Below the pieces are notes generated by a model, which worked only from the letters and a program-made list of their open reading frames with translations, made no database searches and was not told the DNA's origin. The translations under genes and the position numbers were made by a program. Source: an uncultured Actinomycetota bacterium (lineage in GTDB: Bacteria; Actinomycetota; Actinomycetes; Propionibacteriales; Nocardioidaceae). From it: 64,000 bases of DNA. Below, one piece after another: positions 32,597 through 57,368 of this stretch; the first letter of the stretch is position 1, and each line of letters opens with the position of its first letter. Where the stretch lies: positions 55,315 through 119,314 of the forward strand of contig CAWEHA010000003.1 in the NCBI GenBank assembly GCA_963808855.1. Reading direction: 5' to 3'.

Positions 32597-32611
32597 ACCG
32601 GAGCGACACGA

Positions 32612-34614: not shown

Positions 34615-34626
34615 GGGTCCCCTCTC

Positions 34627-34674
34627 TGCCAAACGTTTGGCATGACTCTAGGGTCGTGACCCGGCCGCCGTCAA
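34627..34674 (-). promoter_or_regulatory. Promoter TTGACG-18-TAGAGT with perfect LacI operator TGCCAAACGTTTGGCA
   Basis: Read directly; operator 34627-42 lies just downstream of the -10. Confidence 0.8.
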
Positions 34675-34695: not shown

Positions 34696-35760
34696 TCAGC
34701 CGGCCGCGGCCGGCGGCGCGGTCGACTCGCGCACCTGCAGCGTGGTCGGCAGCAGCACGCTCGACGGCGTGCTGCCGGGCGCGTCGAGCAACGCCAGGAG
34801 CAGCCGCGCCGCGTGGCGGCCGATCTCGTACTTCGGCACGTGGATGCTGGTGAGCGGCGGGTTGAACTCGTCGCACCAGCGCGAGCCGTTGTAGCCCACC
34901 ACCGACACGTCGTCGGGCACCTCGCGCCCGTGCGCCCGCAACGCCCGGTAGCAGCCGAGGGCGATGAGGTCGTTGGCCGCCACGATGGCCGTGAAGTCCG
35001 CGTCGCGCGCGAGCAGCTCCTCGGTGGCCACCGCGCCGTCGTCCTTGGTGAACCACGGCGCGAACACGATGAGGTCGTGGTCGACCTCGAGGCCGAGCGA
35101 CTGCATCCAGGCGAGGAAGTACTGGTAGCGGTTGAAGCCGGTGGACGCCGACATGGCGGCGCCCACGAAGGCGATGCGCCGGTGGCCGAGCCCGACGAGG
35201 TGCTTGACCGAGAGCCCGATGCCCTGGTGGTCGTCGCCGGCCACCACCGAGAGCCGGCTGTCGTCGACGGTGCGGTTCACCAGCACCACCGGGATGTCGG
35301 AGTCGGTGAGCGACTCGACGGACGGCGAGGACCGCAGTGCCGTCGCGACGACCAGCCCGTCGACGCGGCGGTCACGGAACACCTCGAGCAGGTTCTCCTC
35401 GCGGCCGGCGTCCTGGTCGGTGCTGCCGAGGATGATCGCGTAGCCGCGCTCGCGCAGGCTGTCCTCGAGCCCCCGCGCGATCGGCGGGAACAGCGGGTTG
35501 CCCAGGTCGGGCACCAGCATCCCGATGGTCATCGAGCGCTGCACCTTGAGACCCCGCGCGAACGGGTTGGCCCGGTAGCCGAGCGCGTCCGCCGTGGCGA
35601 GCACCCGCTTGACCGTCTCGGGCCGCACCCGGTGCCGCGCCTCGGGCCGCAGTGCCCGCGACACGGTCGAGACGTCGAGCTGGGCCGCCTGCGCGACCTC
35701 GCGCAGGGTGGGAGCCCGGCGCCGGGCGACCGGCTCGGGCGCGCTGCCGGCGTCGGTCAA
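34696..35760 (-). CDS. LacI family regulator
   Basis: PTLREVAQAAQLDVSTVSRAL, LGYRANPFARGL, PPLTSI; TTG start 35760. Confidence 0.93.
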   Translation of the reverse strand: MTDAGSAPEPVARRRAPTLREVAQAAQLDVSTVSRALRPEARHRVRPETVKRVLATADALGYRANPFARGLKVQRSMTIGMLVPDLGNPLFPPIARGLEDSLRERGYAIILGSTDQDAGREENLLEVFRDRRVDGLVVATALRSSPSVESLTDSDIPVVLVNRTVDDSRLSVVAGDDHQGIGLSVKHLVGLGHRRIAFVGAAMSASTGFNRYQYFLAWMQSLGLEVDHDLIVFAPWFTKDDGAVATEELLARDADFTAIVAANDLIALGCYRALRAHGREVPDDVSVVGYNGSRWCDEFNPPLTSIHVPKYEIGRHAARLLLALLDAPGSTPSSVLLPTTLQVRESTAPPAAAG

Positions 35761-35845: not shown

Positions 35846-37021
35846 TCACGGCACGCCGTCCATCGGCACCGAGCGCGACGTGGCGGCCGCGCCGGCGAGC
35901 AGGACGGCGGTGAGCCACAGGACGCCGGCCGCACCGAGTCCGGCGGCCACCAGGCCGACGCTGCTGGGGATCACGACCTGGCCGAACCGGTTGCCCACCA
36001 GCCGCAGCGCCACGACGCGACCCTGCAGGCCGCGGGGCGCGATCTCGGCGAGCCAGGCCAGCGTCGCCGGCATGCACACCCCCAGCCCGAAGCCCATCAC
36101 CAGCACCGCGACGGCGACCAGCCAGAGCGGCACGGGCAGCGGCACGGTCGCCGTCGCCACCGCCGAGGCGCCGATGGTGACCGCGAGCAGCCGCCGGCGT
36201 CCGAGCCGCCGGGTGAGCGCACCGGTGGCCAGGCGCGACGCCATGGTGGCGACCGAGCGCGCCGCGAGCAGGGCGCCCACGGTGCCGACCGTCCACCCTT
36301 TCTCGGCGCCGAGCGCCGGCAGGTAGACCAGCGTGATGTCCATGGCCACGATCACGGCGCTGCTCACCACGAGCCCGCGGGCCATCCCAGGCGTGCGCAG
36401 CAGGCTGAGCACCCGCCGGTCGGGGGGATCGGCGACGGCGGCGCGGCGCGGCGTGCTGCGGCAGCACAACGCCAGCAGCAGCATCGCCACGGCTAGCAGC
36501 GCGGCAGCGCGGAACGCGTCCTCGGTGCGCGGCAGCGCCGCCCCGGCGCCGAAGAAGGCGAGGAGCCCCGGTCCCAGCGCCTGCCCGACGCTGCCCGCGA
36601 AGGTGTAGAAGCCGTAGGCGCTGTCGAGCTTCCCGGACGGCGCCAGCCCGGCCACCAGCGCCTGTTGCCCGACCATGCACAGCAGGTGGCCGGTGCCGAG
36701 CACCACCACAGCCAGCAGCAGCGTCGCGAACCGGTCGGCGGTGAACAGGAACAGCCCGATCGCCACAGCCACGAGCAGCGACCCCGCCACGACGAGCCGG
36801 GCCTGCCCGAACCGGTCGGCCAGGTCGCCGGCCGGGATGGCGACCAGCAGCGGCACCAGCGCGAAGCTCGCGCCGAGCACGCCGAACAGCGCCGTGGGCA
36901 CGTCGAGCTCGAGGGCGCGGTAGCTCGCCGTCGGGCGCAGCAGGAACGTGATCGTCTGGAACACCAGCGCGTGCCCGGCGACGACCACCAGGGCCCGGCG
37001 GGCGCGGGGCGGGGCCGTCAC
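35846..37021 (-). CDS. MFS transporter
   Basis: GDLADRFGQ and GALTRRLGRR motifs, about 12 TM segments; GTG overlaps upstream stop. Confidence 0.88.
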   Translation of the reverse strand: MTAPPRARRALVVVAGHALVFQTITFLLRPTASYRALELDVPTALFGVLGASFALVPLLVAIPAGDLADRFGQARLVVAGSLLVAVAIGLFLFTADRFATLLLAVVVLGTGHLLCMVGQQALVAGLAPSGKLDSAYGFYTFAGSVGQALGPGLLAFFGAGAALPRTEDAFRAAALLAVAMLLLALCCRSTPRRAAVADPPDRRVLSLLRTPGMARGLVVSSAVIVAMDITLVYLPALGAEKGWTVGTVGALLAARSVATMASRLATGALTRRLGRRRLLAVTIGASAVATATVPLPVPLWLVAVAVLVMGFGLGVCMPATLAWLAEIAPRGLQGRVVALRLVGNRFGQVVIPSSVGLVAAGLGAAGVLWLTAVLLAGAAATSRSVPMDGVP

Positions 37022-38031
37022 CGCTGGTGGCTCGGGAGCCGCGCCGCGTGCGTCCCGAGCAGCCGGCGCACGTTGTCGTCGGCCACGCGCTGCACCAGCG
37101 CGTCGTCGCCGGCCGCGCGCACCGTGCCGAGCGGGTCGGGGTCGCCCATCTCGAACGGGTGGTCGCTGCCCAGCACCACCTGGCCCGGCCCCACCACGCC
37201 GAGCAGGTGGCGCAGCGCGGCCGGGGAGTGCACCACGGTGTCGAACCAGAGCGAGCGCAGCAGCTCGCCGGGGGCGGTGCGCACCAGCGCCGCGGCACCG
37301 CGGGCGTCGCGGTGGAAGGCGTGGTCCCAGCGGCCCACCTGGTAGGGGGCGAAGCCGCCACCGTGCACGAACACCCAGCGCACGTCGGGATGCCGGTCGA
37401 CGACGCCGCCGAACACGAGGTGGCCGATCGCGATGGTGGTCTCGGCCGGGTTGCCCACCAGGTTGCCGAGGAAGTGACGTCGCACCTCCCGCCCGCGCAG
37501 CGACTCGTAGGGGTGCACGAGCAGCAGGCAGTCGAGCTCGCGTGCGGTCTGCCAGACCACCTCGTAGCCGTCGTCGTCGAGCTCGCGACCGGCCGGGCGG
37601 GTGGCGATCTCGGCGCCCACCATGCCGAGCTCGGTCACCGCGCGGCGCAGCTCGGCGGCGGCGGCCGCCGGGTCGCCGAGCGGCAGGTTGGCGAGGCCGA
37701 GCAGCCGCTCCGGCTCGGCGCGCACGACGTCGGCCAGCGCGTCGTTGTGCACCCGCGCGAAGTCGACGGCGGCCCCCGGCGCCACCGCGCTGGCGGCCAG
37801 GTTCATCCACGGTGAGAGGAGCTGCACGTCCACCCCGCTCGCGTCCATCGCGGCGATCCGGCCGGGCAGGTCGATCAGCCCCGGCGGCACCCGCATCGGC
37901 TCGCGGCCCTCGATCGTCACCTCCACCCGGTCAGCTCCGGGCCGCGCCGTGGCGCCGAGAGCGCCGGAGCCGGCCAGGGCGTCGAGGAAGGCGGCGGGGA
38001 CGCCATGGGCGTGGACGTCGACGGTGAGCAT
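37018..38031 (-). CDS. Amidohydrolase_2 family (ACMSD-like decarboxylase/hydrolase)
   Basis: DVHAH, MDASGVDVQLLS, LLVHP, HGGGF, GSDHPF. Confidence 0.88.
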   Translation of the reverse strand: MLTVDVHAHGVPAAFLDALAGSGALGATARPGADRVEVTIEGREPMRVPPGLIDLPGRIAAMDASGVDVQLLSPWMNLAASAVAPGAAVDFARVHNDALADVVRAEPERLLGLANLPLGDPAAAAAELRRAVTELGMVGAEIATRPAGRELDDDGYEVVWQTARELDCLLLVHPYESLRGREVRRHFLGNLVGNPAETTIAIGHLVFGGVVDRHPDVRWVFVHGGGFAPYQVGRWDHAFHRDARGAAALVRTAPGELLRSLWFDTVVHSPAALRHLLGVVGPGQVVLGSDHPFEMGDPDPLGTVRAAGDDALVQRVADDNVRRLLGTHAARLPSHQR

Positions 38032-38093
38032 CGGGGCTCTCCTGGACACGGTCGGGACGAGGTGCGGACGCCACGAAACTAGTGCAGGACGGC

Positions 38094-38123
38094 TTGACCA
38101 TACAAACGATTGGCAGATACGTT
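38094..38123 (+). promoter_or_regulatory. Promoter TTGACC-18-TACGTT with operator TACAAACGATTGGCA in the spacer
   Basis: Read directly; divergent intergenic region. Confidence 0.75.
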
Positions 38124-38164
38124 CCAGCAGTCGGCCGAACCCCACCCACGTGCAGGAGGATGCG

Positions 38165-39154
38165 TTGAGCGCTCCGCTGGTCGCCGTCCTCGGCACCCGC
38201 TACCGCGACCTGGGGATCGAGGAGGAGGTGCTGGCCCGCTTCTCGCCGCGGATCGTCGCCGACCCCGCCGGGAGCGCCGAGGCGCTGCTGGCCGCGGCCG
38301 CCGAGGCCGACGTCGTGCTCGCGGGTTCGGCCCCGAAGTTCACCGCCGAGGTGCTCGAGGGCCTGCGCTGCCGCGGCGTCGTGCGCTACGGCGTCGGCAC
38401 CGACTCGGTCGACCTCGAGGCCGCCCGGCGGCTCGGCATCGGCGTGGCGCGGGTGTCCGACTACGGCACCGAGGCGGTCGCGTTCCACGCGGTGGCCACG
38501 GTGTGCGCGCTGCTGCGCCGCCTCACCGAGGCCGACCGGACGGTGCGCGAGGGGGGCTGGGGCTTCGCCGACCTCCGCCCGCTGCACCTGCCGAGCACAC
38601 TGACCGCCGGCGTCGTCGGCTTCGGCCGGATCGGCCGCCAGACCGCCACCTACCTCCAGGGCCTGGGCCTGTCGGTCTGCGCGTTCGACGAGTACGTCGA
38701 CGTGCCGGCCGACTCCGGCGTCCGCGCCGTCGACCTCGAGACTCTGCTGCGCACCAGCGACGTCGTCAGCCTCCACGCCCCCGGCAACGCCGACGGCTCC
38801 CCGCTGCTCGACGCCGCCGCGCTCGGCCTCATGAAGCCCGGCAGCCTGCTGGTCAACACCGCCCGCGGCTCACTCATCGACATGCCGGCGCTCGTCGAGG
38901 CGCTGCGCGCCGGAGCACCCGCCCGGGCCGCGCTCGACGTCTTCCCGCGCGAGCCCGTCGACGTCTCGGTGCTCGGCGACGTCGTCGACCGGGTGCTGCT
39001 CACGCCGCACATGTCCTGGTACACCGAGCAGTCCGAGGCGGACATGCGGCGCAAGGCCGCCGAGGAGGCAGCCCGGCTGCTGGCGGGCGAGCCGCTGCGC
39101 GACCCCGTCGTCGAGCCCGCCCGCCCCGCACCGACCGCCGAGGAGCCCGCATGA
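38165..39154 (+). CDS. D-isomer-specific 2-hydroxyacid dehydrogenase
   Basis: RYGVGTDSVD, GVVGFGRIG, SLHAP, LVNTARG, ALDVF..EP, TPHMSW; TTG after AGGAGG. Confidence 0.92.
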   Translation: MSAPLVAVLGTRYRDLGIEEEVLARFSPRIVADPAGSAEALLAAAAEADVVLAGSAPKFTAEVLEGLRCRGVVRYGVGTDSVDLEAARRLGIGVARVSDYGTEAVAFHAVATVCALLRRLTEADRTVREGGWGFADLRPLHLPSTLTAGVVGFGRIGRQTATYLQGLGLSVCAFDEYVDVPADSGVRAVDLETLLRTSDVVSLHAPGNADGSPLLDAAALGLMKPGSLLVNTARGSLIDMPALVEALRAGAPARAALDVFPREPVDVSVLGDVVDRVLLTPHMSWYTEQSEADMRRKAAEEAARLLAGEPLRDPVVEPARPAPTAEEPA

Positions 39155-39948
39155 CCCGCGACCTGGCCCGCATGACCAGCCCGGAGGCGCGGGAGGCGAT
39201 GGCCGCGTCCCGCACCGTCGTGCTGCCGATCGGCAGCATCGAGCAGCACGGCCCGCACCTGCCCAACGGCACCGACACGATGGCCGCCGAGCTCGTGGCC
39301 GCCGAGGTCGCCCGGCGCCTCGACGCCGTCTACGCGCCGTTCTGCCCCTACGGCGTCACGCCGATCCACGCCGGCCACCCCGGCACCGTGACGCTGCGCC
39401 GCTCCACGTTCGAGGCGCTGCTCGAGGACGTGCTCACCGAGCTGGTCGCCGCCGGCGCCGAGACCCTGATCCTGGTCAACTGGCACGAGGGCAACATCGC
39501 GTCGATGAACGCGGTGGCCACCGACATCCAGGAGCGGCACGACGTCACCCTGGTGGCGGCCCAGGCCTGCTACACCGCGCAGCGGCTCTACCGCGAGGAG
39601 GGCGGCGAGCTCACCCACGGCGGCGGCATCGAGACCCTCGCCGTGCTCGCGCTCGACCCGTCGCTGGTGAAGGCCGACCGCGCCGGCGAGCCGACCCGGC
39701 CGCCCGGGGCGCACGAGATGGACGCGATGCGCCGCTCGCCCGAGGTCTACGGCTTCATCACCGACGTCACCGAGCTCGCCGACGACGGCTGGTTCGGCAA
39801 CCCGCAGTGGGCCACCACCGACCGCGCCGGCAGCTTCACCGACGTCGTGGCCACCGGCGTGCTCGAAGGCATCGAGGTCGTCACGAACGCTCGCCGCATC
39901 CGCACCGAGAACCGGCTCAACCACCCCGAGAACGAGGAGAACGCATGA
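39151..39948 (+). CDS. Creatininase family amidohydrolase
   Basis: LPIGSIEQHGPHLPNGTD, VNWHEGN, THGGGIET. Confidence 0.92.
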   Translation: MTRDLARMTSPEAREAMAASRTVVLPIGSIEQHGPHLPNGTDTMAAELVAAEVARRLDAVYAPFCPYGVTPIHAGHPGTVTLRRSTFEALLEDVLTELVAAGAETLILVNWHEGNIASMNAVATDIQERHDVTLVAAQACYTAQRLYREEGGELTHGGGIETLAVLALDPSLVKADRAGEPTRPPGAHEMDAMRRSPEVYGFITDVTELADDGWFGNPQWATTDRAGSFTDVVATGVLEGIEVVTNARRIRTENRLNHPENEENA

Positions 39949-41012
39949 GTGACAAGGTCCGTCTGGCGTCGGTCGGTCTCGGCCGCTGGGCCCGGGTGCT
40001 CGGCCGGGGCGCCCAGCGCGGCGACCAGGTCGAGCTGTACAGCTGCTTCAGCCGCGACGCCGCCAAGCGCGAGGCCTTCCAGGAGGAGTTCGACGTGCCG
40101 AACGCCGCCTCCTCCTACGAGGAGCTGCTGGCCGACCCGGAGGTGGAGGGCGTCGTCATCACCACGCCCAACGACACCCACATGGACGTCGTCAGCCAGG
40201 CGCTGCGGGCCGGCAAGGCCGTCTACACCGACAAGCCGATCGCCCACACCCTCGAGGACGCCAACCAGATCGCCGCGGTGGTGGCCGAGACCGGCGGCGT
40301 GTTCGCCGTCGGGCACAGCTCGCGGCGGCTGTCGGGCCACCGCGAGATGAAGCGCTGGATCGACGACGGCCGGCTCGGCGAGGTGTCGCTGGCCGAGGCC
40401 AACTTCTCCAACGAGCGCGGCCTCGAGCTCACCCCGAACACCTGGCGCTGGTACGCCGACAAGAGCCCGGGCGGCGCGTTCATCCAGCTCGGCGTCCACC
40501 ACGCCGACACGCTCCAGTTCCTGCTCGGCCCGGTGAAGAGCGTGTCCGCGCACGCCCGCAAGCTCTACACCGAGGCCGAGGTGCCGGACGCGATCATGGC
40601 GGTGCTCGAGTTCGAGAGCGGCGCCCTCGGCTACATCGGCACCGGCTGGGCCTCCCCCGGCGTCTACACGATGAACCTGCTGGGCACGAAGGCCAACCTG
40701 ATGTACGACCTCGACTTCACGCACTGGGACGAGTCCCACCTCGCCGACGACTGGTCGACGCTCCGCTCGCAGTTCTACGGCGAGTCGGTGCGACAGAAGG
40801 TCGACCTCCCCCGCACCGACATGTTCCGCGAGCAGCTCGAGGAGTTCGGGCTCGCGGCCCGCGGCGAGGCGCAGGTGGAGGTCGGCGCCACCGAGGCGGT
40901 GCGCGCGCTGGCCGTCGTCCGCGCGGTGATCGAGTCGTCGGCACGCAACGGCGAGGCCGTCAGCCTCGACGAGGTCATCGACTCCGCGCAGGCCACCCCG
41001 GCCAACGCCTGA
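39945..41012 (+). CDS. Gfo/Idh/MocA oxidoreductase
   Basis: VGLGRWA, TTPNDTH, YTDKP, QLGVHHAD. Confidence 0.92.
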   Translation: MSDKVRLASVGLGRWARVLGRGAQRGDQVELYSCFSRDAAKREAFQEEFDVPNAASSYEELLADPEVEGVVITTPNDTHMDVVSQALRAGKAVYTDKPIAHTLEDANQIAAVVAETGGVFAVGHSSRRLSGHREMKRWIDDGRLGEVSLAEANFSNERGLELTPNTWRWYADKSPGGAFIQLGVHHADTLQFLLGPVKSVSAHARKLYTEAEVPDAIMAVLEFESGALGYIGTGWASPGVYTMNLLGTKANLMYDLDFTHWDESHLADDWSTLRSQFYGESVRQKVDLPRTDMFREQLEEFGLAARGEAQVEVGATEAVRALAVVRAVIESSARNGEAVSLDEVIDSAQATPANA

Positions 41013-41014
41013 CC

Positions 41015-41383
41015 GTGCCCGTCGTCCACGCCGCCGGCCTCGACTTCGCCCACCTGCCCGGGCGACGGTCGGCCGATCCGCTGACGGGCTCGTCGGCGGC
41101 CGAGAGCTACGCGGTCCGGGTGGTCCAGGTACCGCCCGGGCCGCGTACACCACATCGCCACCCCCACAGCGACGAGATCACCTACGTCGTCTCGGGACAC
41201 GGCAACGCGTGGGAGGACGACGTCCGCACCCCGGTGGGGCCGGGCGACGTCGTGATCGTGCCGCGCGACGTCCCGCACGCCACCGTCGCCCACGGCGACG
41301 ACGACCTCGTGCTCGTCTGCTTCTTCCCGGAGCCCGACCTGGCGAACAACCTGGTGGAGCTGGACGGCCCGCTCCGCGACTGA
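41015..41383 (+). CDS. Cupin domain protein
   Basis: PHRHPHSDEITYVVSG, GDVVIVPRDVPH. Confidence 0.88.
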   Translation: MPVVHAAGLDFAHLPGRRSADPLTGSSAAESYAVRVVQVPPGPRTPHRHPHSDEITYVVSGHGNAWEDDVRTPVGPGDVVIVPRDVPHATVAHGDDDLVLVCFFPEPDLANNLVELDGPLRD

Positions 41384-41397
41384 ACGAGCACCAATAC

Positions 41398-41461
41398 CGA
41401 GTCGGCGCGTCATTTCACGCCGACTCGAGCCACCTCACCTGACATCTAGCGCCGACTCGAC
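41398..41461. repeat. Three CGCCGACTCG units forming a hairpin (possible bidirectional terminator or REP remnant)
   Basis: 41398-407 (reverse), 41418-27, 41450-59, between convergent genes. Confidence 0.6.
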
Positions 41462-41473
41462 GTTCGATGCCGG

Positions 41474-42259
41474 TCAGGTCATGGTGGTGGTGAGGGCGCC
41501 GAGGCCGTCGATCTCGACGGTGAGCACGTCGCCGGGCACGAGGAAGCGCGGGGGCGTCCGCGCCATGCCGACGCCGGGCGGGGTGCCGGTGACGAGCAGG
41601 TCGCCGGGCTCGAGCGTCATGGTCTCGGTGATGGTGGAGATGAGCTCGGCGACGCCGAACACCATCTGCGAGGTCGAGGAGTCCTGCACCACCTCGTCGT
41701 TGAGGGTGCACCGGATGCCGAGCGCCTGCGGGTCGGGCACCTCGTCGGCGGTGACGAGCCAGGGGCCGAGCGGCAGGAAGCCGTCGATCGCCTTGCCGCG
41801 GGTCCACTGCCCACCGCTGCGCTGGAGGTCGCGCGCGGACAGGTCGTTGGCGCAGGCGTAGCCGGCCACGTGGTCGAGCGCGTCGTCGGCCCGCACCCGG
41901 GTGGCGGTGCGCCCGATCACGACGGCGAGCTCGGCCTCCCAGTCCGCCTCGGCCGTGGCGGCCGGGATCGGCACGGTGGCGGCGTCGCCCACCACCGAGT
42001 TGGCGAACTTGCAGAAGAGCACCGGCTCGGTGGGCACCGGCTTGCCGGTCTCGGCCGCGTGGTCGCGGTAGTTGAGCCCGACGCACACGATCTTGCCCGG
42101 TCGCGGCACGGGCGCGGCCAGCGTGAGACCCGCAAGTGGCACCGGCTCGCCCTCCGCGACCGGCGCTCCCGCCAGGTACCCGACCAGGTCGTCCCCCATC
42201 GGGACGACGGCGTCACCCTCCAGCCGGCCGAAGCCGCCGGCGTACGACACGAGCCTCAT
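41474..42259 (-). CDS. Fumarylacetoacetate hydrolase family protein
   Basis: KIVCVGLNYRDH, DWEAELAVVIG, ANDLSARDLQ, WTRGK, TGTPPGVG. Confidence 0.93.
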   Translation of the reverse strand: MRLVSYAGGFGRLEGDAVVPMGDDLVGYLAGAPVAEGEPVPLAGLTLAAPVPRPGKIVCVGLNYRDHAAETGKPVPTEPVLFCKFANSVVGDAATVPIPAATAEADWEAELAVVIGRTATRVRADDALDHVAGYACANDLSARDLQRSGGQWTRGKAIDGFLPLGPWLVTADEVPDPQALGIRCTLNDEVVQDSSTSQMVFGVAELISTITETMTLEPGDLLVTGTPPGVGMARTPPRFLVPGDVLTVEIDGLGALTTTMT

Positions 42260-42341
42260 CAGCACCTCATGGGTCGAAGAGAGACCGACGGCCGGCCGTG
42301 GCCCCCCAAGGGCACGACCGGCCGCCGGCAGGGAGGGTCTG

Positions 42342-43370
42342 TCAGTCGATCTCGCCCGGCTCGACCTCGACGCCGAGCTTCTCCTGCACCTCGGTGAGGC
42401 AGGTGAAGTCGACGTGCTCACGCCAGTCGAAGCCCTCCGGCACGTTCTCGTTCGCGATCATGTCCTCGTTCCAGGATTCGAACGAGTCCTCGCTCGCGCC
42501 GGCCTCGATCGCGATCTGGGTGGCGAACTCGCCGGTCCAGTCCTCGATCTCGGCGTCGGTGGGCTCGATGTCCTGGGCTTCCTTGACGAGCTCGATCACC
42601 GCCTCGCGGTTGTCGATGTGCTCGTCACCGGCGCCCGCGTAGAGGTTCGACTCGATGCGGCCCTCGATGTAGCCGCACACGGCGTCCTTGTTGTCCTCGA
42701 GGAAGTCGGTGCGGACCACCCAGACCTCCTGAGGGGCCTCCACGAACTCCGTCTCGAACATCGTGCCGCCGGCCTCCTCGAGCGGCGCCTGGTGGCGCGG
42801 CTGCAGCTGCGCGACGTCGATCTGGCCGGCGAGGAGCGCCTGGAGCCGCTCGTCCGAACCGCCGTTGACCGGCACGAACTCCATGTCGTCGGGGTCGACG
42901 CCGCGGTTCTCGAGGATGTTCTTGGCCACCTGGATGTTGCGGTCGCCGGTGGCACCACCGGAGATCTTCAGGCCCTCGAGCTCGTCGGGGTCGACGCCCT
43001 CGCGGGCACCCATCCACCACGCCTCGGCGTCCTTGGCGACACCGACGACGGTCAGGTCGACGCTGCCCTCGGCGATGGCCGACCAGATCACGTCGCTCTC
43101 GCCCTGGGCGATCCACACGTCGCCGCCGATGAGACCAGCGAGGTACTCCGGCGACGCCGTGACCTCCGCGGGCTCGTCGAAGCCGAGCTCGGGCCAGTAC
43201 TTCTCGTCGGCCACGATCCACGACATCTGGTTCATGTAGTCGTCGCCGTCGTAGGACATCCGCACCTGGGTGACCTCGCCGCCGTCGCCGCCACCGTCGT
43301 CACCGCCGCACGCCGAGAGCAGGGCGCTGACCGCGCCCAGGCCGGCCACGACCGCCATTGCCTTCTTCAC
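42342..43370 (-). CDS. NitT/TauT-type ABC substrate-binding lipoprotein
   Basis: Lipobox LSAC; operon with two TauC-like permeases and an ATPase. Confidence 0.8.
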   Translation of the reverse strand: MKKAMAVVAGLGAVSALLSACGGDDGGGDGGEVTQVRMSYDGDDYMNQMSWIVADEKYWPELGFDEPAEVTASPEYLAGLIGGDVWIAQGESDVIWSAIAEGSVDLTVVGVAKDAEAWWMGAREGVDPDELEGLKISGGATGDRNIQVAKNILENRGVDPDDMEFVPVNGGSDERLQALLAGQIDVAQLQPRHQAPLEEAGGTMFETEFVEAPQEVWVVRTDFLEDNKDAVCGYIEGRIESNLYAGAGDEHIDNREAVIELVKEAQDIEPTDAEIEDWTGEFATQIAIEAGASEDSFESWNEDMIANENVPEGFDWREHVDFTCLTEVQEKLGVEVEPGEID

Positions 43371-43488
43371 AGTTCCTCCATTGGAATGCTTGTTCAGGAC
43401 CCGATCGGCCGGGTCTCCGTCCTGCTGTGGTGCCCGAGGGTCCGGTCGGTGGGGAGACGTCGTGCCGTCCGCCCGGACTTCTGGCTGG

Positions 43489-44349
43489 TCAGTCGACCAG
43501 CCGGCGTCCGACCATCACCTTCCTCTCGATCCACTGCGTCAGGCCCACCAGGAGCACGCAGAAGAGGACGAAGATGAGGAGCATCGAGTAGATGCGGGCG
43601 CTGTTGAAGTTCTTCTGGGCCAGCGTCATGATGTAGCCGATCCCGTTGACGCCGGTGAACACCTCGCCGATGAACAGGCCGAGGAGCCCGCGGGTGACGC
43701 CCATCCGCACCCCGATGGCGATGAACGGGACCGTCGAGGGCATCACGATCTTGGTGAACAGCTGCAGGCGCCCGGCGCCGAACGAGCGCCCCGCGGTGAG
43801 CAGGCTGTTGTCGACGGTCTTGACGCCCTCCATGATCACCACGAGCGTGGCCGGCACGGCCGAGAGCACGATGATCCAGATGCGGGCGGCGTCGTTGATG
43901 CCGACCCAGAGCAGCAGCAGCGGCATCAGCACGATGCGCGGCATCGTGTAGAGCGCCCACACATAAGTGCTCAGCGCCTTGTCGAGCCACGGGATGCCGC
44001 CGATGGCGAGACCCAGCGGGATGGCGACCGCGAGCGAGATCACCATGCCGATCGCGTAGATCGACAGGCTGATGCCGAGGTTGTTGAAGAGGATCCCCTG
44101 CTCGTGCATCTCGACGGTCTCGGCCCACACGTCGGTGACCGCCGGCAGGTACAGCGTCGGAACGCTGCCGTACTGGGCGACGAGCTCCCAGATCACGAGG
44201 AACGCGGTGAGGTTCAGGATCGAGATCACGATGCGCTGCCAGCGGTTGAAGCGGCGCCGCGACCGGAAGCGGGGTGCGCGGCGGCGGCGCATCGCGCCGG
44301 GCACGAGCGGACGGCGGCCGGGAGCCTCGGGCTGCAGGGTGGCGGCCAT
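43489..44349 (-). CDS. NitT/TauT-type ABC permease
   Basis: EGVKTVDNSLLTAGRSFGA, GIGY. Confidence 0.9.
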   Translation of the reverse strand: MAATLQPEAPGRRPLVPGAMRRRRAPRFRSRRRFNRWQRIVISILNLTAFLVIWELVAQYGSVPTLYLPAVTDVWAETVEMHEQGILFNNLGISLSIYAIGMVISLAVAIPLGLAIGGIPWLDKALSTYVWALYTMPRIVLMPLLLLWVGINDAARIWIIVLSAVPATLVVIMEGVKTVDNSLLTAGRSFGAGRLQLFTKIVMPSTVPFIAIGVRMGVTRGLLGLFIGEVFTGVNGIGYIMTLAQKNFNSARIYSMLLIFVLFCVLLVGLTQWIERKVMVGRRLVD

Positions 44350-45224
44350 CAGATCACCACCTCCTCACGCCAGCGGCTGGCCCACACCTCGAGGCGGCGC
44401 GAGGCCGTGACGAGGAAGAGGGCGATCGCGATGAGCAGGAGGATGAAGCCGAACATCCGCGCGGTGTCGTACATGCGGGCGGACTTGATGACCTCGCCAC
44501 CGATGCCGGCGGCACCGATGAGCAGCTCGACCGACAGCAGGCCGACGAAGCCGCGCGAGATCGCGTTGCGCACGCCGCTGGCGATGAACGGCATCGCCGC
44601 CGGAAAGACCACCTTGAGGAAGACCGCGGTCCTCCCACCGCCGAAGCACCGGGCGGCCCGGACGAGCGAGGCGTCGACGGTCTGCACGCCCTCCTTGCAG
44701 CTGAGGCAGAGCGGGATGGCCGCCGACAGCACGACCATGTAGACGCTGGTGGTGGTGCTGAACCCGGAGATCAGGATCAGCAGCGGCGCGAAGGCGATGT
44801 TGGGCAGCGCGAAGAAGCCCCACAGGTAGGGCGAGGTGATGAGGTCGATCGTCGGCGAGAGGCCGATGATCAGGCCCACGGGGATCGCCAGGAGCGAGAG
44901 CGCCATGCCGAGCGCCAGCGGGCCGGCGCTGTCCTGCACCGCCTGCCACACCGAGCCGTCCTCGACGGCGTCGGCGAACGCCGTGAAGACCGCGCCGGGC
45001 CCGGGCAGGATCAGCGGCTCGGGATCGGTGATCACCACGGCGAGCTGCCAGACCAGGAAGAACAGCGCCAGGCTGATGAAGGCGGGCAGCTGGCGACGCA
45101 CGGCCTTGCCCCACGACTTCTTGCGGGCGGGCCCGAGGTGGGAGCTCCCGCCGGACTGGTGTCCCCGCACCGTCACCTCCTCGCCGGCGGCGGTGCCGAT
45201 GCTCGGAGTGCTGGAGAAGCTCAT
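44349..45224 (-). CDS. NitT/TauT-type ABC permease
   Basis: EGVQTVDASLVRAARCFGG, GIGG. Confidence 0.9.
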   Translation of the reverse strand: MSFSSTPSIGTAAGEEVTVRGHQSGGSSHLGPARKKSWGKAVRRQLPAFISLALFFLVWQLAVVITDPEPLILPGPGAVFTAFADAVEDGSVWQAVQDSAGPLALGMALSLLAIPVGLIIGLSPTIDLITSPYLWGFFALPNIAFAPLLILISGFSTTTSVYMVVLSAAIPLCLSCKEGVQTVDASLVRAARCFGGGRTAVFLKVVFPAAMPFIASGVRNAISRGFVGLLSVELLIGAAGIGGEVIKSARMYDTARMFGFILLLIAIALFLVTASRRLEVWASRWREEVVI

Positions 45225-46126
45225 CGCAGCGCCTCGGGCGGTGCCGCTGACGGCTCGTTGACGATCGACGGCTCCTCGGGGACGGGCTCCCAGGTCGGCT
45301 CCTCGGCGGCCTTCTCGGCCTGCGGGCCGAGCAGCTCCCAGATCCGGTCGCGCAGGGCCTGGAACTCCGGCAGCTTGCGGCTCTCGCGGCTGCGGGGCCG
45401 CGGGATGCCGACCTCGAGGATCTCGCGGATCCGGCCGGGCCGGTTGGTGACCACCGCGATCCGGTCGGCCAGCGTGATCGCCTCGTCGACGCTGTGGGTG
45501 ATGAAGATGATGGCCTGTCCGGTCTCGGCGACGATGCGCGCGAGCTCGTCCTGCATCACCTCGCGGGTCATGGCGTCGACGGCGGCGAACGGCTCGTCCA
45601 TCAGCAGCAGCCGCGGCTCCGTGACGAGGGCGCGGGCCAGGCCGACGCGCTGCCGCATGCCGCCGGACAGCTCGCGCGGGTAGGCCTTCTCGAAGCCCTC
45701 GAGCCCGACGAGCTTGATGTAGTGCTGGACGAGGTCCTTGGTGGAGGAGTCGACCCGCTTCTGCATCTCGAGACCGAACCGGACGTTCTGCTCGGTGGTG
45801 CGCCACGGCATCAGCGCGTAGTCCTGGAACACGACCGCGCGGTCGGTGCCCGGGCCGGTGACCGGCGTGCCGAGCACCTCGATGGTGCCGTCGGACGGCG
45901 GCATGAGGCCGGCGACGACGTTGAGGAATGTGCTCTTGCCACAGCCGCTCGGGCCGACGACGGCGAGGAACTCACCCTGCGCCAGCTCGATGCTGAAGTC
46001 CCGCAGCGCGATCAGCGTGTCCTTCTCGCGGAGCCGGTCATAGGTGACGGCGACGCCGCGCGCCTCGACAGCGAGCGTCTGCGCGCCCAGTTCGCGTCCG
46101 GTGTCGGCCGGATCCCGGTGCTTCAT
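45221..46126 (-). CDS. NitT/TauT-type ABC ATPase
   Basis: GPSGCGKS, LSGGMRQR, LLMDEPF, FITHSVDEA. Confidence 0.95.
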   Translation of the reverse strand: MKHRDPADTGRELGAQTLAVEARGVAVTYDRLREKDTLIALRDFSIELAQGEFLAVVGPSGCGKSTFLNVVAGLMPPSDGTIEVLGTPVTGPGTDRAVVFQDYALMPWRTTEQNVRFGLEMQKRVDSSTKDLVQHYIKLVGLEGFEKAYPRELSGGMRQRVGLARALVTEPRLLLMDEPFAAVDAMTREVMQDELARIVAETGQAIIFITHSVDEAITLADRIAVVTNRPGRIREILEVGIPRPRSRESRKLPEFQALRDRIWELLGPQAEKAAEEPTWEPVPEEPSIVNEPSAAPPEALR

Positions 46127-46160: not shown

Positions 46161-46289
46161 TGCAATCGTTTGTGATCGAACTGCCCAGAATCATCGATGT
46201 CAAGCCCTTCGCACGGTGAAACTGAGGTTGTTTCCCTGTTGTGATCGTTTGCAGGACGCCGCGAGTACAAGTCCAATACAAACGTTGGA
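46161..46289 (-). promoter_or_regulatory. ABC operon promoter TTGACA-17-TTCGAT with three LacI-type boxes
   Basis: TGCAATCGTTTGTGA (46161), GTGATCGTTTGCA (46241), TACAAACGTTGGA (46277). Confidence 0.7.
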
Positions 46290-46344
46290 TGTTAATGTAA
46301 CCCAAGTCAGTAGGGATTGGCGGTCGATCCAGCGAGGCTCACAC

Positions 46345-47505
46345 CTAGGCGCTGCGGTAGAGCTTGGTGAGCGTGAACTCGCGGTGCCCGAGCAGCTCGG
46401 CGGCGGTGAGTCGGCCGTTGATCGTGCGCTCGACCACGTCGATGAGGTGCTCGCCCTGCTCCTCCACCGAGGCGCCGCTGGTGAGGAGCGGCGAGCAGTC
46501 GACGTCGATGTGCTCGCCCATCGACGCCACCGTCTTCGGGTTGGCCGAGATCTTCACGACCGGCTGGATCGGGTTGCCGATCGGGTTGCCCTGACCGGTG
46601 GGGAACAGGTTCACGACGCCGCCGCCGGCGGCCATCAGCGTGACGCACTCGGCGGCCGCCGAGGAGGTGTCCATGAAGTGCAGGCCGTTCGTGGTGGGCG
46701 CCTCGGCCGGCGCCAGGGCGCCGACGACCGGCTGGGTGCCGGTCTTGACGATGTTGCCGAGCGCCTTCTCCTCGATCGTCGACAGTCCGCCGGCGATGTT
46801 GCCCTGGGTCGGCTGGGAGCCGAGCAGGTTGGCGCCGGTCTTCTCGATCATGTCGATGTAGTCGTCGTAGAAGCCCTGGAAGCGCGCCCGCACCTCGTCG
46901 CTCACACACCGCTCGGCGATGAGGTGCTCGCCGCCAGTGAGCTCGCTGGTCTCGCCGAAGATCATGGTGCCGCCGGCGTCGACCCACCGGTCGCTGAGGT
47001 AGGCGGTGACCCGGCACGAGCCGAGCCCGGTGGTGGTGTCCGACTCGCCGTCCTTGGTGGTGAGGAGGATCTCGGAGCGCTGCACCGGCTCGCGGCTGTG
47101 CTCGCTGGCGTCCTGGAGGAACTGCTTGGCCACCTTCGCGGCCCTCGGGATGATGCTGAGGTCACCGAAGCCCTCGAGCCACATGCCCTCCACCGGCTTG
47201 CCGGTCTTGGCGATGCCCTCGACCACCCGGCCCGTCCAGTTCGGCTCCACTCCGATCACGATCACGGCCGCCACGTTCGGGTTGGAGCCGATGCCGATCA
47301 GCGTGCGGAAGGTGAGCTCGAGGTCGTCGCCGAACTGCAGCCGCCCGAACGCGTGAGGCAGCGCCATCACGCCGGGGATCAGGGCCGCCACGCCCTCGGC
47401 GGCCGCATTGGACAGGTCGTCGACCGGGAGGATCGCGACGTGGTTGCGGGTGCCGACGGCACCGTTGGGCCGGCGGAATCCGGTCAGGCCACGCTGTTCT
47501 GCCAC
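46345..47505 (-). CDS. suyB: (2R)-sulfolactate sulfo-lyase beta subunit (UxaA family)
   Basis: RNHVAILPVDDLSNAA, PHAFGRLQFGDDLEL, GESDTTTGLGSC, SQPTQGNIAGGLSTIEEKALGN, MDTSSAAAECVTLMAAGG, HREFTLTKLYRSA, matching remembered SuyB. Confidence 0.85.
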   Translation of the reverse strand: MAEQRGLTGFRRPNGAVGTRNHVAILPVDDLSNAAAEGVAALIPGVMALPHAFGRLQFGDDLELTFRTLIGIGSNPNVAAVIVIGVEPNWTGRVVEGIAKTGKPVEGMWLEGFGDLSIIPRAAKVAKQFLQDASEHSREPVQRSEILLTTKDGESDTTTGLGSCRVTAYLSDRWVDAGGTMIFGETSELTGGEHLIAERCVSDEVRARFQGFYDDYIDMIEKTGANLLGSQPTQGNIAGGLSTIEEKALGNIVKTGTQPVVGALAPAEAPTTNGLHFMDTSSAAAECVTLMAAGGGVVNLFPTGQGNPIGNPIQPVVKISANPKTVASMGEHIDVDCSPLLTSGASVEEQGEHLIDVVERTINGRLTAAELLGHREFTLTKLYRSA

Positions 47506-57356: not shown

Positions 57357-57368
57357 GGTCGAGGCCTT

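What the first reader, a model, noticed from the sequence alone, without database searches (positions are those of the whole stretch)
35846..46126. Uncharacterised catabolic pathway (two amidohydrolases, 2-hydroxyacid DH, Gfo/Idh/MocA, cupin, FAH, two-permease TauABC-type ABC), possibly feeding SuyAB
The enzyme set (creatininase-type ring amide hydrolase, ACMSD-like enzyme, cupin, FAH-type C-C hydrolase, D-2-hydroxyacid reductase) matches no pathway I recognise. It is not sulfo-EMP, sulfo-ED, sulfo-TAL or Hps. Inference: breakdown of a cyclic or N-acylated sulfonate to sulfopyruvate, reduced by the D-specific dehydrogenase to the (R)-sulfolactate SuyAB needs. The FAH gene follows the ABC genes on the same strand.
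Basis: inference. Interest (0 to 1): 0.6.

Follow-up and report, generated by a model that had tools for sequence, protein, structure and literature searches.

The report
Unassigned catabolic island beside sulfolactate lyase
A soil actinobacterium carries a repressor-controlled set of import and breakdown genes whose four-enzyme core recurs across several bacterial phyla, often next to the enzyme that splits sulfite off sulfolactate. It therefore probably breaks down an organosulfur nutrient that has not yet been identified.

Summary

**The conserved core.** The 2-hydroxyacid dehydrogenase, creatininase-family hydrolase, Gfo/Idh/MocA dehydrogenase and 3-His/1-Glu cupin (38165-41383) form a four-gene module. 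It is conserved in Actinomycetes, Acidimicrobiia, Nitriliruptorales and Alpha-, Beta- and Gammaproteobacteria. None of the four reaches a curated family cut-off for a known function. A 2026 review of sulfoquinovose pathways names none of these enzyme families.

**The link to SuyAB.**
- The neighbouring SuyAB is a true orthologue: 59% identical to the SuyB of the Cupriavidus hpsRNOUPsuyAB cluster.
- SuyAB lies within 10 kb of the module in nine independent loci.
- Only about half of the genomes that carry the module have SuyB, so the link is real but facultative.

- A D-specific dehydrogenase would make (S)-sulfolactate, whereas SuyAB uses (R)-sulfolactate. No ComC-type partner was found in the genome.
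- "TauABC-type" holds only at family level.

**Other points.**
- LacI operators tie the operons together.
- Accessory genes that recur with the module elsewhere are a LVIVD propeller hydrolase, an ACMSD-like enzyme, FrsA-like hydrolases, M24, FAH and an AprAB-like pair.
- The substrate remains unknown.
- The scan has noted this same module on other genomes, also without assigning it.

The parts
34696..35712 (-). LacI-family repressor. The true start is uncertain; the HTH begins near residue 76 of the longest ORF, which ends at 35934.
   Evidence: Pfam LacI + Peripla_BP_3. Promoter-like TTGACA-17-CAGAAT at 35837-35809. Orthologues lie beside the module in L013, L015, L016, L019, G117, G057 and G142.
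35846..37021 (-). MFS carrier, translationally coupled to the ACMSD-like gene
   Evidence: Pfam MFS_1, 2.8e-35. GTG at 37021 overlaps the stop at 37018. About 11 hydrophobic segments. 69% identical copy in L013.
37018..38031 (-). ACMSD-subfamily Amidohydro_2 enzyme (decarboxylase or hydratase type)
   Evidence: PF04909, 3e-34. Human ACMSD 2wm1, E 1e-43, with the HxH, His, Asp and Arg positions aligned. Present beside the module in 9 of 12 actinobacterial loci.
38101..38114 (.). LacI-type operator in the divergent promoter region
   Evidence: TACAAACGATTGGC; second-best PWM hit in the whole genome.
38165..39154 (+). D-isomer-specific 2-hydroxyacid dehydrogenase (module gene 1)
   Evidence: PF02826 and PF00389. 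Best NCBIfam hits are PGDH and glyoxylate reductase, all below cut-off. Syntenic in all full-length module loci.
39151..39948 (+). Creatininase-family binuclear metallohydrolase (module gene 2)
   Evidence: PF02633, 196 bits. MftE, creatininase and IolN models all below cut-off. More than 120 clusters at 75-93% identity in metagenomes. Metal-ligand-type residues are invariant.
39945..41012 (+). Gfo/Idh/MocA NAD(P) dehydrogenase (module gene 3)
   Evidence: PF01408 and PF22725. Best NCBIfam hit is IolG, 127 bits against a cut-off of 355. PDB 3db2, E 4e-83. 69-89% identical in actinobacterial loci.
41015..41383 (+). Small 3-His/1-Glu metallo-cupin (module gene 4)
   Evidence: PF07883. H47, H49, E54, H88, R17, R35 and R44 are invariant across actinobacterial and proteobacterial copies. 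Nearest PDB match is KdgF, E 7e-7.
41474..42259 (-). FAH-family hydrolase, last gene of the ABC operon
   Evidence: PF01557, 258 bits. Best NCBIfam hit is 2,4-didehydro-3-deoxy-L-rhamnonate hydrolase, 245 bits against a cut-off of 500. 67% identical copy beside the module in G117 and 43% in G142.
42342..43370 (-). Lipoprotein substrate-binding protein of the NMT1/SsuA fold
   Evidence: PF09084, 24 bits; SsuA_fam 33 bits against a cut-off of 163.5. LSAC lipobox. AF2 model pLDDT 87; fold hits SsuA, TauA, Thi5, ThiY and PqqT, each at about 15% identity.
43489..45224 (-). Two ABC permeases (43489-44349 and 44349-45224)
   Evidence: PF00528 in both. Start and stop overlap.
45221..46126 (-). ABC ATPase of the NitT/TauT family
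   Evidence: PF00005. ntrCD 239 bits and TauB 229 bits, both below cut-off.
46161..46290 (.). Three LacI-type operators upstream of the ABC operon (46161, 46240, 46277)
   Evidence: These are the best, third-best and sixth-best PWM hits in the genome. The PWM was built from these sites together with 38101.
46345..47786 (-). SuyB (46345-47505) and SuyA (47484-47786), sulfolactate sulfo-lyase orthologues. Context of the finding, not part of the LacI regulon.
   Evidence: GD_AH_second + GD_AH_C, and SAF. 58.9% identical to the C. pinatubonensis SuyB in an hps-suyAB cluster and 69.5% to the Rhodococcus copy; the next UxaA-family hit is 40% or less.
55896..59572 (-). Probable further regulon members: beta-hydroxyacid dehydrogenase (58610-59572), M24 hydrolase (57369-58613) and SSADH-like aldehyde dehydrogenase (55896-57356)
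   Evidence: Pfam and NCBIfam. LacI-type boxes at 59600 and 59659 that were not used to build the PWM. M24 and beta-HADH recur beside the module in L014, L023, G117 and G142.
31241..34632 (.). Recurrent companions: LVIVD propeller (31241-32497, +), AprB-like ferredoxin (32612-32878, -) and AprA-like flavoprotein (32875-34632, -)
   Evidence: Pfam. Ferredoxin motifs. LacI-type palindrome at 34628. LVIVD model best matches the Sphingobium phosphotriesterase 5hrm, E 8e-16. Co-located with the module in L013, L014, L019, L024, L093-L095, G117, G057, G142 and G287.

Best explanation
The stretch is a LacI-repressed accessory catabolic island for a small anionic nutrient, most likely an organosulfonate whose carbon skeleton ends as sulfolactate or sulfopyruvate.

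**Shown**
- The gene families and the operon layout.
- Shared LacI-type operators.
- Conservation of the four-gene module across phyla.
- True orthology of the adjacent SuyAB.
- Non-random but facultative co-localisation of the module with SuyAB, AprAB-like genes, TauE and a cytoplasm-facing molybdoenzyme.

**Inferred mechanism**
1. A lipoprotein SBP and a NitT/TauT-family ABC importer take up the compound. An MFS carrier may also contribute.
2. The Gfo/Idh/MocA enzyme oxidises a secondary alcohol or hemiacetal.
3. The creatininase-family metallohydrolase opens or cleaves the oxidised intermediate. This could be lactam or lactone hydrolysis, or IolN-like hydrolysis of a 1,3-dicarbonyl.
4. The 3-His/1-Glu cupin, with three invariant arginines suited to anionic groups, isomerises or eliminates.
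5. The D-2-hydroxyacid dehydrogenase interconverts a 2-oxo acid and a D-2-hydroxy acid. Candidates are sulfopyruvate/(S)-sulfolactate or hydroxypyruvate/D-glycerate.
6. The ACMSD-like enzyme, FAH, LVIVD propeller hydrolase, M24, aldehyde dehydrogenase and beta-hydroxyacid dehydrogenase process side groups or the non-sulfur fragment.
7. Where SuyAB is present it releases sulfite, which the neighbouring molybdoenzyme and SulP handle. Where SuyAB is absent, the sulfonated product would be excreted.
For: **Gene families:**

**Module synteny:** L013-L029, L093-L113 and G117, G057, G142, G287.

**SuyAB within the fetched flank:** the window, L014, L018, L022, L024, L100, L110 and G117, plus G288 (unpublished genome, by coordinates only).

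**SuyB elsewhere in the genome:** G047, G048 and G049.

**Base rates:**
- SuyB is found in 12 of 400 Actinomycetota and 0 of 40 close relatives.
- Fisher p = 0.012 for module against SuyB and p = 0.0008 for module against the molybdoenzyme. Both are inflated by shared ancestry.

**Other sulfur-related neighbours:**
- TauE beside the module in L020 and L023.
- AprA-like beside it in six loci.

**SuyB orthology:**

**Transporter family:** a NitT/TauT-type two-permease ABC also serves the hps-suyAB cluster of Paracoccus versutus.

**Cupin:** invariant metal ligands and arginines.

**IolM-like parallel:** an IolM-like Zn-ADH lies next to a creatininase paralogue in G117.

**LacI operators:**
Against: - Seven of the 15 genomes behind L013-L029, and 4 of 6 module-bearing genomes in the unbiased sample, show no SuyB. 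Three of those (G057, G142, G287) are 98% complete and their islands hold no sulfur-specific gene.
- No quartet enzyme reaches a curated cut-off.
- The SBP fold gives no call on the ligand.
- The dehydrogenase has the wrong stereospecificity to feed SuyAB directly, and no ComC was found.
I checked only that the FadR gene is 53% identical to the one beside the Rhodococcus suyAB.
- No candidate natural sulfonate fits all the enzymes.
Confidence: 0.42

Rival explanations
1. The island degrades a sulfur-free sugar acid or cyclitol-like acid. The quartet would work like the Thermotoga IolG/IolM/IolN/IolO ring-opening route, and the 2-hydroxyacid dehydrogenase would act as a 2-keto-aldonate or hydroxypyruvate reductase. 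SuyAB lies nearby only because accessory catabolic genes gather in islands.
For: - The best NCBIfam hits are sugar or cyclitol enzymes: IolG for Gfo, IolN among the creatininase hits, IolM for the Zn-ADH beside the creatininase paralogue in G117, diketo-deoxy-rhamnonate hydrolase for FAH, and RbsR/GntR for LacI.
- The cupin is nearest to KdgF and sugar isomerases.
- High-quality genomes G057, G142 and G287 have the island without any sulfur gene.
- Transporters vary: TTT, Dpp-like and NitT/TauT.
Against: - Co-localisation with orthologous SuyAB recurs in Actinomycetes, Acidimicrobiia, Hyphomicrobiales and Gammaproteobacteria. SuyB occurs in only 3% of sampled genomes, which is hard to explain by chance.
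- TauE and AprAB-like neighbours.
- No sugar kinase or aldolase lies in the core.
- All family scores are far below cut-off.
Confidence: 0.25
2. The island degrades a lactam, an N-heterocycle or a small modified peptide. The cupin would act as a ring-cleaving or decarboxylating metalloenzyme, and the creatininase-family enzyme as a formamide, lactam or peptide hydrolase like MftE or ArfB. The many other hydrolases (M24, FrsA-like, ACMSD-like, FAH, GST) would finish the job. A sulfonated residue such as cysteate would be at most a side branch.
For: - The best NCBIfam hit of the creatininase-family enzyme is the peptidase MftE.
- M24 creatinase/DddP-like genes recur in the window, L014, L023 and G117.
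- FrsA-like and S9-like hydrolases recur in six or more loci.
- Dpp-type SBPs occur in L016, L019, L023 and G287.
- Three GSTs plus FAH lie in L023.
- The ACMSD-like enzyme keeps ACMSD catalytic positions.
- A Mo hydroxylase lies at 28936-31293.
Against: - No oxygenase, aminotransferase or deaminase lies in the conserved set.
- The compact proteobacterial loci (GntR-quartet-TctC; L020, L025, L028) have none of the extra hydrolases.
- The cupin is too small for known ring-cleaving dioxygenases, and no HAO or gentisate model fits.
Confidence: 0.15
3. One reading: a cyclic or N-acylated sulfonate is converted to sulfopyruvate, and the D-specific dehydrogenase reduces this to the (R)-sulfolactate that SuyAB needs.
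For: Same co-localisation evidence as the main explanation. A 'hydroxyacid dehydrogenase' also sits in the Rhodococcus suyAB cluster.
Against: - By the CIP rules, D-sulfolactate is (S), just as D-cysteine is (S). SuyAB is (R)-specific, and known pathways need SlcC plus ComC (PMC12421959; PMC11382572).
- In Rhodococcus the hydroxyacid dehydrogenase is paired with an Ldh-family (ComC-type) gene. No Ldh_2 was found here.
- The two dehydrogenases are only 32% identical.
Confidence: 0.08
4. An oxidative, non-phosphorylative sulfoquinovose route modelled on the L-rhamnose/L-fucose diketo-hydrolase pathway: dehydrogenase, lactonase, dehydratase, 4-dehydrogenase, then FAH hydrolase giving pyruvate and sulfolactate.
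For: - FAH is nearest to diketo-deoxy-rhamnonate hydrolase.
- Several lactonase-type folds are present (Amidohydro_2, propeller, alpha/beta).
- An SSADH-like aldehyde dehydrogenase and a YihU-family dehydrogenase are present.
Against: - No GH31 sulfoquinovosidase in the genome or in any locus.
- FAH is not part of the invariant core.
- There is no dedicated dehydratase in genomes that lack SuyAB.
- The transporters are not of sugar type.
Confidence: 0.05

Closest known systems
hpsRNOUPsuyAB (Cupriavidus pinatubonensis) and SlcC/ComC-SuyAB sulfolactate mineralisation (Chromohalobacter, Paracoccus)
   Same: - Ends in an orthologous two-subunit SuyAB (59% identical large subunit).
- Has a LacI-family regulator.
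- In Paracoccus versutus, uses a two-permease NitT/TauT-type ABC importer.
- Sulfite-handling genes lie nearby.
   Different: - No HpsN, HpsO or HpsP and no ComC-type dehydrogenase here.
- The upstream enzymes (Gfo, creatininase family, cupin, D-2HADH) are unknown in any sulfonate pathway.
- The SBP is only 26% identical over 141 residues.
Thermotoga maritima myo-inositol pathway IolG/IolM/IolN/IolO (from my own knowledge of Rodionova et al. 2013, and from NCBIfam models NF041097 and NF041098)
   Same: A Gfo/Idh/MocA dehydrogenase, a second dehydrogenase, a creatininase-family hydrolase and an isomerase encoded together. A UxaA-family enzyme acts downstream.
   Different: - All scores are far below the IolG, IolM and IolN cut-offs.
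- The isomerase here is a cupin, not a TIM barrel.
- The transporters are for anions.
- The UxaA-family enzyme is a SuyB orthologue, not an altronate dehydratase.
Creatinine degradation (creatininase + M24 creatinase)
   Same: A creatininase-family enzyme and an M24 creatinase-like enzyme co-occur in the regulon and in L014, L023 and G117.
   Different: - Creatininase equivalog not met: 102 bits against 235.
- M24 is not part of the invariant core.
- No sarcosine oxidase.
Non-phosphorylative L-rhamnose/L-fucose pathway (FAH-family diketo-hydrolase, Amidohydro_2 lactonase)
   Same: An FAH hydrolase nearest to that family. An Amidohydro_2 enzyme and dehydrogenases are present.
   Different: - FAH scores 245 bits against 500.
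- The Amidohydro_2 enzyme is of the ACMSD subfamily, not the lactonase subfamily.
- No enolase-type dehydratase.

Membership tests
SuyAB, (2R)-sulfolactate sulfo-lyase (neighbour at 46345-47786) | Two subunits: a small SAF-domain protein plus a large UxaA/GarD C-terminal protein | tested here: met
   A 100-aa SAF protein and a 386-aa GD_AH_second + GD_AH_C protein, with overlapping genes.
SuyAB, (2R)-sulfolactate sulfo-lyase (neighbour at 46345-47786) | Orthology to a SuyB from a studied sulfonate cluster, clearly separated from other UxaA-family enzymes | tested here: met
   58.9% identical to the C. pinatubonensis SuyB inside LacI-hpsN-hpsO-MFS-hpsP-suyAB. 55.7-69.5% identical to the Paracoccus and Rhodococcus copies. 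The next class is 40.2% or less. The cluster is described in PMC11382572.
SuyAB, (2R)-sulfolactate sulfo-lyase (neighbour at 46345-47786) | Fe(II)-dependent release of sulfite from (R)-sulfolactate | not testable with these tools
   Needs an enzyme assay.
TauABC / SsuABC sulfonate importers | SBP and ATPase reach the TauA/SsuA and TauB/SsuB model cut-offs | tested here: not met
   SsuA_fam 33 bits against 163.5. TauB 229 against 357. SsuB 176 against 395. The fold search cannot separate SsuA, TauA, Thi5, ThiY and PqqT.
NitT/TauT family ABC importer (TC 3.A.1.17) | NMT1/SsuA-fold SBP, BPD_transp_1 permeases and a NtrCD/TauB-like ATPase | tested here: met
Creatininase (EC 3.5.2.10), MftE and IolN | Score above the equivalog cut-off of the named enzyme | tested here: not met
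   Creatininase 102 against 235; MftE 104 against 172; IolN 60 against 245. The Pfam family PF02633 is met at 196 bits.
ACMSD (2-amino-3-carboxymuconate-semialdehyde decarboxylase) | ACMSD-subfamily sequence with metal ligands and substrate arginine, in a 3-hydroxyanthranilate pathway context | tested here: inconclusive
   E 1e-43 to human ACMSD, with the HxH, His, Asp and Arg positions aligned. No HAO or aminomuconate genes lie nearby.
Known sulfoquinovose pathways (sulfo-EMP, -ED, -TAL, -TK, -ASMO, -ASDO) | Their key enzyme families, usually with a GH31 sulfoquinovosidase | tested here: not met
   No GH31 in the genome, which is 93.7% complete. None of the island's families appears in the 2026 review. 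The sulfofucose ED pathway uses SDR, SMP30, enolase and HpcH families.
Thermotoga-type inositol route (IolG/IolM/IolN) | IolG, IolM and IolN equivalogs encoded together | tested here: not met
   IolG 127 against 355 and IolN 60 against 245. No Zn-ADH in the window. The IolM-like Zn-ADH occurs only in relatives: G117 at 219 against 450, and L018.

The most novel reading that the evidence does not exclude
The four-gene module (Gfo/Idh/MocA, creatininase-family hydrolase, 3-His/1-Glu cupin, D-2-hydroxyacid dehydrogenase) is the core of a widespread, undescribed organosulfonate pathway. It would use a hydrolytic C-C or ring cleavage to produce sulfolactate, perhaps from a natural sulfonate that has not yet been recognised as a nutrient. 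In this reading the AprAB-like flavoenzyme and the cytoplasm-facing molybdoenzyme are dedicated partners.
Probability: 0.3. Interest if true: 0.8.

Novelty: new variant of a known kind. Interest (0 to 1): 0.58.

Why it matters
Sulfonates make up a large share of the organic sulfur in soils and oceans. Only a handful of entry routes into the sulfolactate/SuyAB mineralisation step are known: DHPS, sulfoquinovose, sulfofucose and cysteate.

This module is abundant in soil metagenomes, with more than 120 protein clusters at 75% identity or above. It spans Actinomycetota and three proteobacterial classes, and no member has been characterised.

If it does feed SuyAB, it defines a new entry route, and possibly a new substrate, in the sulfur cycle. 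It would also give first functions to a creatininase-family clade, a small cupin clade, a LVIVD propeller hydrolase and an AprAB-like flavoenzyme. If it does not, it is still a well-defined and testable orphan pathway with a readable repressor-operator pair that could serve as a biosensor for its unknown inducer.

Tried and rejected
I obtained genomic context through the search for related loci, the genome search and the fetch from genomes instead.
- **Same-genus relatives** lack the module: the best hit is 38% identical. The island is therefore accessory.
- **Literature searches** for creatininase with sulfolactate, for Gfo or cupin with sulfolactate, for LVIVD and for IolN/IolM found no paper describing this gene set.
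- **No RNA holder** was listed for the module, and DNA holders share only small fractions of its words. I draw no conclusion on expression or habitat.
- **The SBP fold search** gave no ligand-level answer.
- **Pairwise comparisons** are uninformative at family level:
  - the window's LacI is 29-32% identical to the LacI regulators of the Cupriavidus and Paracoccus hps clusters;
  - the 2HADH is 32% identical to the Rhodococcus hydroxyacid dehydrogenase.
- **The TPP enzyme** in the G117 island is acetolactate-synthase-like, not Xsc.
- **Missing partners:** no clear HpsN and no ComC in the genome.
- **An error of my own:** my first AprB-like query (32526-32945) was in the wrong frame. The ferredoxin is at 32612-32878. 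The 'AprB' tblastn rows should be read only as conserved DNA.
- **Circularity:** the PWM for the LacI operator was built from four sites of this island, so their top ranks are circular. Only 34628, 59600 and 59659 are independent hits.
- **Fisher tests** ignore shared ancestry and overstate significance.
- **Unpublished genomes:** the count of two genomes with both module and SuyB includes G288, and the 37 molybdoenzyme-positive genomes include G170.

Full report
**Observation**

The window is about 73% G+C, so I called genes from third-position G+C and start-codon context and named them with Pfam and NCBIfam.

The minus-strand genes at the left end are:
- a LacI-family repressor (34696 to about 35712);
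- an MFS carrier (35846-37021);
- an ACMSD-subfamily Amidohydro_2 enzyme (37018-38031).

They diverge from a plus-strand operon of four genes:
- D-2-hydroxyacid dehydrogenase (38165-39154);
- creatininase-family hydrolase (39151-39948);
- Gfo/Idh/MocA dehydrogenase (39945-41012);
- cupin (41015-41383).

A minus-strand operon converges on that one:
- ABC ATPase (45221-46126);
- two permeases (44349-45224 and 43489-44349);
- a lipoprotein substrate-binding protein (42342-43370; lipobox seen);
- an FAH-family hydrolase (41474-42259).

The label 'TauABC-type' holds only at family level: the binding protein scores 33 bits against a 163.5-bit cut-off for the SsuA family, and the ATPase scores 229 against 357 for TauB.

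**Regulation**

A LacI-type palindrome (consensus about TGCAAWCGWTTGYA) lies in the divergent promoter at 38101. It occurs three times upstream of the ABC operon, at 46161, 46240 and 46277.

I built a weight matrix from these four sites. It also finds sites that were not used to build it:
- a perfect palindrome at 34628, at the start of the AprA-like gene;
- two sites at 59600 and 59659, upstream of a minus-strand operon of a beta-hydroxyacid dehydrogenase, an M24 hydrolase and an SSADH-like aldehyde dehydrogenase (55896-59572).

Promoter-like hexamers precede the LacI gene and the AprA-like gene.

**The conserved core**

The creatininase-family protein has no orthologue in 40 relatives of the same genus and order; the best hit is 38% identical. 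It does have more than 120 protein clusters at 75-93% identity in public metagenomes and MAGs, several of them named Nocardioides.

I fetched loci from species genomes, metagenomes and a phylum sample. The four plus-strand genes always travel together:
- at 53-89% identity in Nocardioides, Micromonosporaceae, Nitriliruptorales, Acidimicrobiia and other Actinomycetota;
- at 30-46% identity, in the order Gfo-creatininase-cupin-dehydrogenase, in Alpha-, Beta- and Gammaproteobacteria.

Across both groups the cupin keeps the canonical metal ligands H47, H49, E54 and H88, and three arginines. The creatininase-family enzyme keeps its metal-ligand-type residues. I therefore treat the two groups as having the same function.

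None of the four reaches a curated cut-off:
- creatininase-family enzyme: MftE 104 against 172, creatininase 102 against 235, IolN 60 against 245;
- Gfo: IolG 127 against 355;
- dehydrogenase: PGDH 180 against 454 and glyoxylate reductase 152 against 455.

**Variable companions**

In actinobacterial loci the module is accompanied by the following.

| Companion | Occurrence beside the module |
|---|---|
| LVIVD beta-propeller | 9 of 12 actinobacterial loci |
| ACMSD-like enzyme | 9 of 12 actinobacterial loci |
| FrsA-like alpha/beta hydrolases | 6 of 12 actinobacterial loci |
| M24 hydrolases | several loci |
| FAH | 67% identical in G117, 43% in G142 |
| AprAB-like flavoprotein/ferredoxin | several loci |

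A model of the LVIVD protein (pLDDT 84) matches the binuclear-metal propeller phosphotriesterase of Sphingobium TCM1 far better than it matches generic WD40 proteins (E 8e-16 against 4e-10). It is probably another metallohydrolase.

Transporters differ between loci: NitT/TauT ABC, Dpp-like ABC, TTT or MFS. Regulators are LacI in Actinobacteria and FCD-type GntR in Proteobacteria. This points to a small anionic substrate.

Compact proteobacterial loci hold only regulator, quartet and TctC (L020, L025, L028). One gammaproteobacterial contig reads TctABC, AprA-like, SuyAB, GntR, quartet (L024).

**Is the neighbour really SuyAB?**

The split UxaA-family pair at 46345-47786 has a large subunit that is:
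- 58.9% identical to the one in a Cupriavidus pinatubonensis plasmid cluster annotated LacI-hpsN-hpsO-MFS-hpsP-UxaA-UxaA;
- 55.7-57% identical to Paracoccus copies;
- 69.5% identical to a Rhodococcus copy that sits in FadR-suyAB-aldehyde dehydrogenase-MFS-oxidoreductase-hydroxyacid dehydrogenase-Ldh.

The next best UxaA-family hits drop to 40% or less. The hpsRNOUPsuyAB cluster and the Fe(II)-dependent lyase are described in PMC11382572. The FadR gene at 53420 is 53% identical to the one beside the Rhodococcus suyAB. I accept the SuyAB call.

**Is the module linked to SuyAB?**

SuyAB lies within the fetched flanks of the module in the window, L014, L018, L022, L024, L100, L110 and G117. By coordinates it also does so in G288, an unpublished genome. 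Three further module-bearing genomes have SuyB elsewhere.

SuyB is rare. It was found in none of 40 relatives and in 12 of 400 sampled Actinomycetota. In that same sample the module occurs in 6 genomes. Two of those have SuyB, both 5-9 kb from the module, whereas 10 of the 394 genomes without the module have it (Fisher p = 0.012).

The cytoplasm-facing molybdoenzyme next to suyAB has orthologues in 4 of the 6 module-bearing genomes, against 33 of 394 others. These tests ignore shared ancestry.

TauE-family exporters lie beside the module in two alphaproteobacterial loci.

Against this, SuyB was not found in 7 of the 15 genomes behind L013-L029, nor in G057, G142, G159 and G287, which are 97-98% complete. 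The islands I read in G057, G142 and G287 contain no sulfur-specific gene. A near-syntenic Nocardioides locus (L013) goes straight from the ABC operon to the molybdoenzyme, with neither suyAB nor FAH.

The link is therefore real but facultative. This is the pattern expected if the module makes a sulfonated product that some organisms mineralise and others excrete. It is also compatible with a looser association.

**The stereochemical step**

In sulfolactate the CH2SO3 group outranks the carboxylate, so D-sulfolactate is (S), just as D-cysteine is (S). SuyAB is (R)-specific.

Known pathways convert S-sulfolactate through sulfopyruvate to R-sulfolactate with the SlcC/ComC pair (PMC12421959; PMC11382572). 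The Rhodococcus cluster pairs its hydroxyacid dehydrogenase with an Ldh-family gene.

No Ldh_2 gene was found in this genome, although the same search scores in five control genomes. The two hydroxyacid dehydrogenases are only 32% identical.

**What it is not**

The genome has no GH31 sulfoquinovosidase, no clear HpsN and no ComC. A 2026 review lists six sulfoquinovose pathways and names none of the island's families. The sulfofucose pathway uses SDR, SMP30, enolase and HpcH enzymes.

The binding-protein model (pLDDT 87) matches SsuA, TauA, Thi5, ThiY, PqqT and CmpA equally, at about 15% identity. It gives no call on the ligand.

**Most likely working**

I commit, at about 0.4, to an organosulfonate-catabolic island. 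The proposed steps, all inferred, are:
1. Import through the ABC system.
2. Oxidation by the Gfo enzyme.
3. Metal-dependent hydrolytic opening or cleavage by the creatininase-family enzyme.
4. Isomerisation or elimination at the cupin.
5. A 2-oxo/D-2-hydroxy acid redox step.
6. Delivery of the sulfonated C3 acid to SuyAB, with the resulting sulfite passing to the molybdoenzyme and SulP.

The closest mechanistic parallel is the Thermotoga inositol route, in which a Gfo dehydrogenase, a second dehydrogenase, a creatininase-family C-C hydrolase and an isomerase act in turn (from my own knowledge and from the NCBIfam models). In G117 a creatininase paralogue sits next to a Zn-ADH whose best model is IolM. 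Membership in that pathway fails on every cut-off, so this is a resemblance in how the module may work, not a family assignment.

The main rivals are a sulfur-free sugar-acid or cyclitol pathway (0.25) and a lactam, heterocycle or peptide pathway (0.15).

**Standing in the scan**

Earlier notes on other genomes (e1-5033698, e1-969196, e1-3550886, e1-2855249) describe the same module with the same companions. All leave the substrate open. My loci confirm the recurrence independently.

Noticed in passing
window 32612-32878 (-): The AprB-like 2x[4Fe-4S] ferredoxin lies in this frame, with two CxxCxxCxxxCP motifs and a 4-nt overlap with the AprA-like stop. The longer ORF 32526-32945 is in a wrong frame.
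   Followed up: yes
window 55896-59572 (-), with boxes at 59600 and 59659: An operon of a beta-hydroxyacid dehydrogenase (tartronate-semialdehyde/YihU family), an M24 hydrolase (best model DddP, far below cut-off) and an SSADH-like aldehyde dehydrogenase. It is preceded by two LacI-type palindromes like those of the island, so it is probably part of the same regulon.
   Followed up: partly
window 31241-32497 (+): The LVIVD-repeat protein has no evident signal peptide and many invariant His, Asp and Glu residues. Its model best matches the Sphingobium TCM1 propeller phosphotriesterase (5hrm), suggesting a cytoplasmic metallohydrolase with an unknown natural substrate.
   Followed up: partly
L182/L183 (G117:C1:3036000-3069999): A complete actinobacterial genome holds a roughly 40-kb version of the island. 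Contents: SnoaL-like protein, acetolactate-synthase-like TPP enzyme, second creatininase paralogue beside an IolM-like Zn-ADH, acyl-CoA-dehydrogenase-like protein, two M24, two FrsA-like hydrolases, a second 2HADH, AprAB-like pair, three of the four module genes (2HADH, creatininase-family, Gfo) with an alpha/beta hydrolase in the cupin's position, FAH, LVIVD, SuyAB, LacI and NitT/TauT ABC. The molybdoenzyme lies 11 kb further on.
   Followed up: partly
L187 (Paracoccus versutus pTAV3, 672155-689306): An hpsO-hpsN / LacI / two-permease ABC / GntR / suyAB / sulfate-exporter cluster. It shows that NitT/TauT-type two-permease importers serve C3-sulfonate pathways. Its SBP is only marginally similar to the window's.
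   Followed up: yes
window 28092-31293 (+): An FCD-type GntR regulator followed by a molybdenum hydroxylase large subunit (MoCoBD domains), just upstream of the LVIVD gene. Whether it belongs to the island is open.
   Followed up: no
window 41390-41470: The 90-bp gap between the convergent cupin and FAH genes holds inverted repeats (GAGTCGGCGCG...CGCCGACTC). This is a likely bidirectional terminator that the simple T-run scan does not report.
   Followed up: no
L013 (Nocardioides MAG, 20.7 kb): A near-syntenic copy of the window from LVIVD to the molybdoenzyme that lacks both suyAB and FAH. About 1.4 kb between the cupin and the SBP is unassigned.
   Followed up: partly
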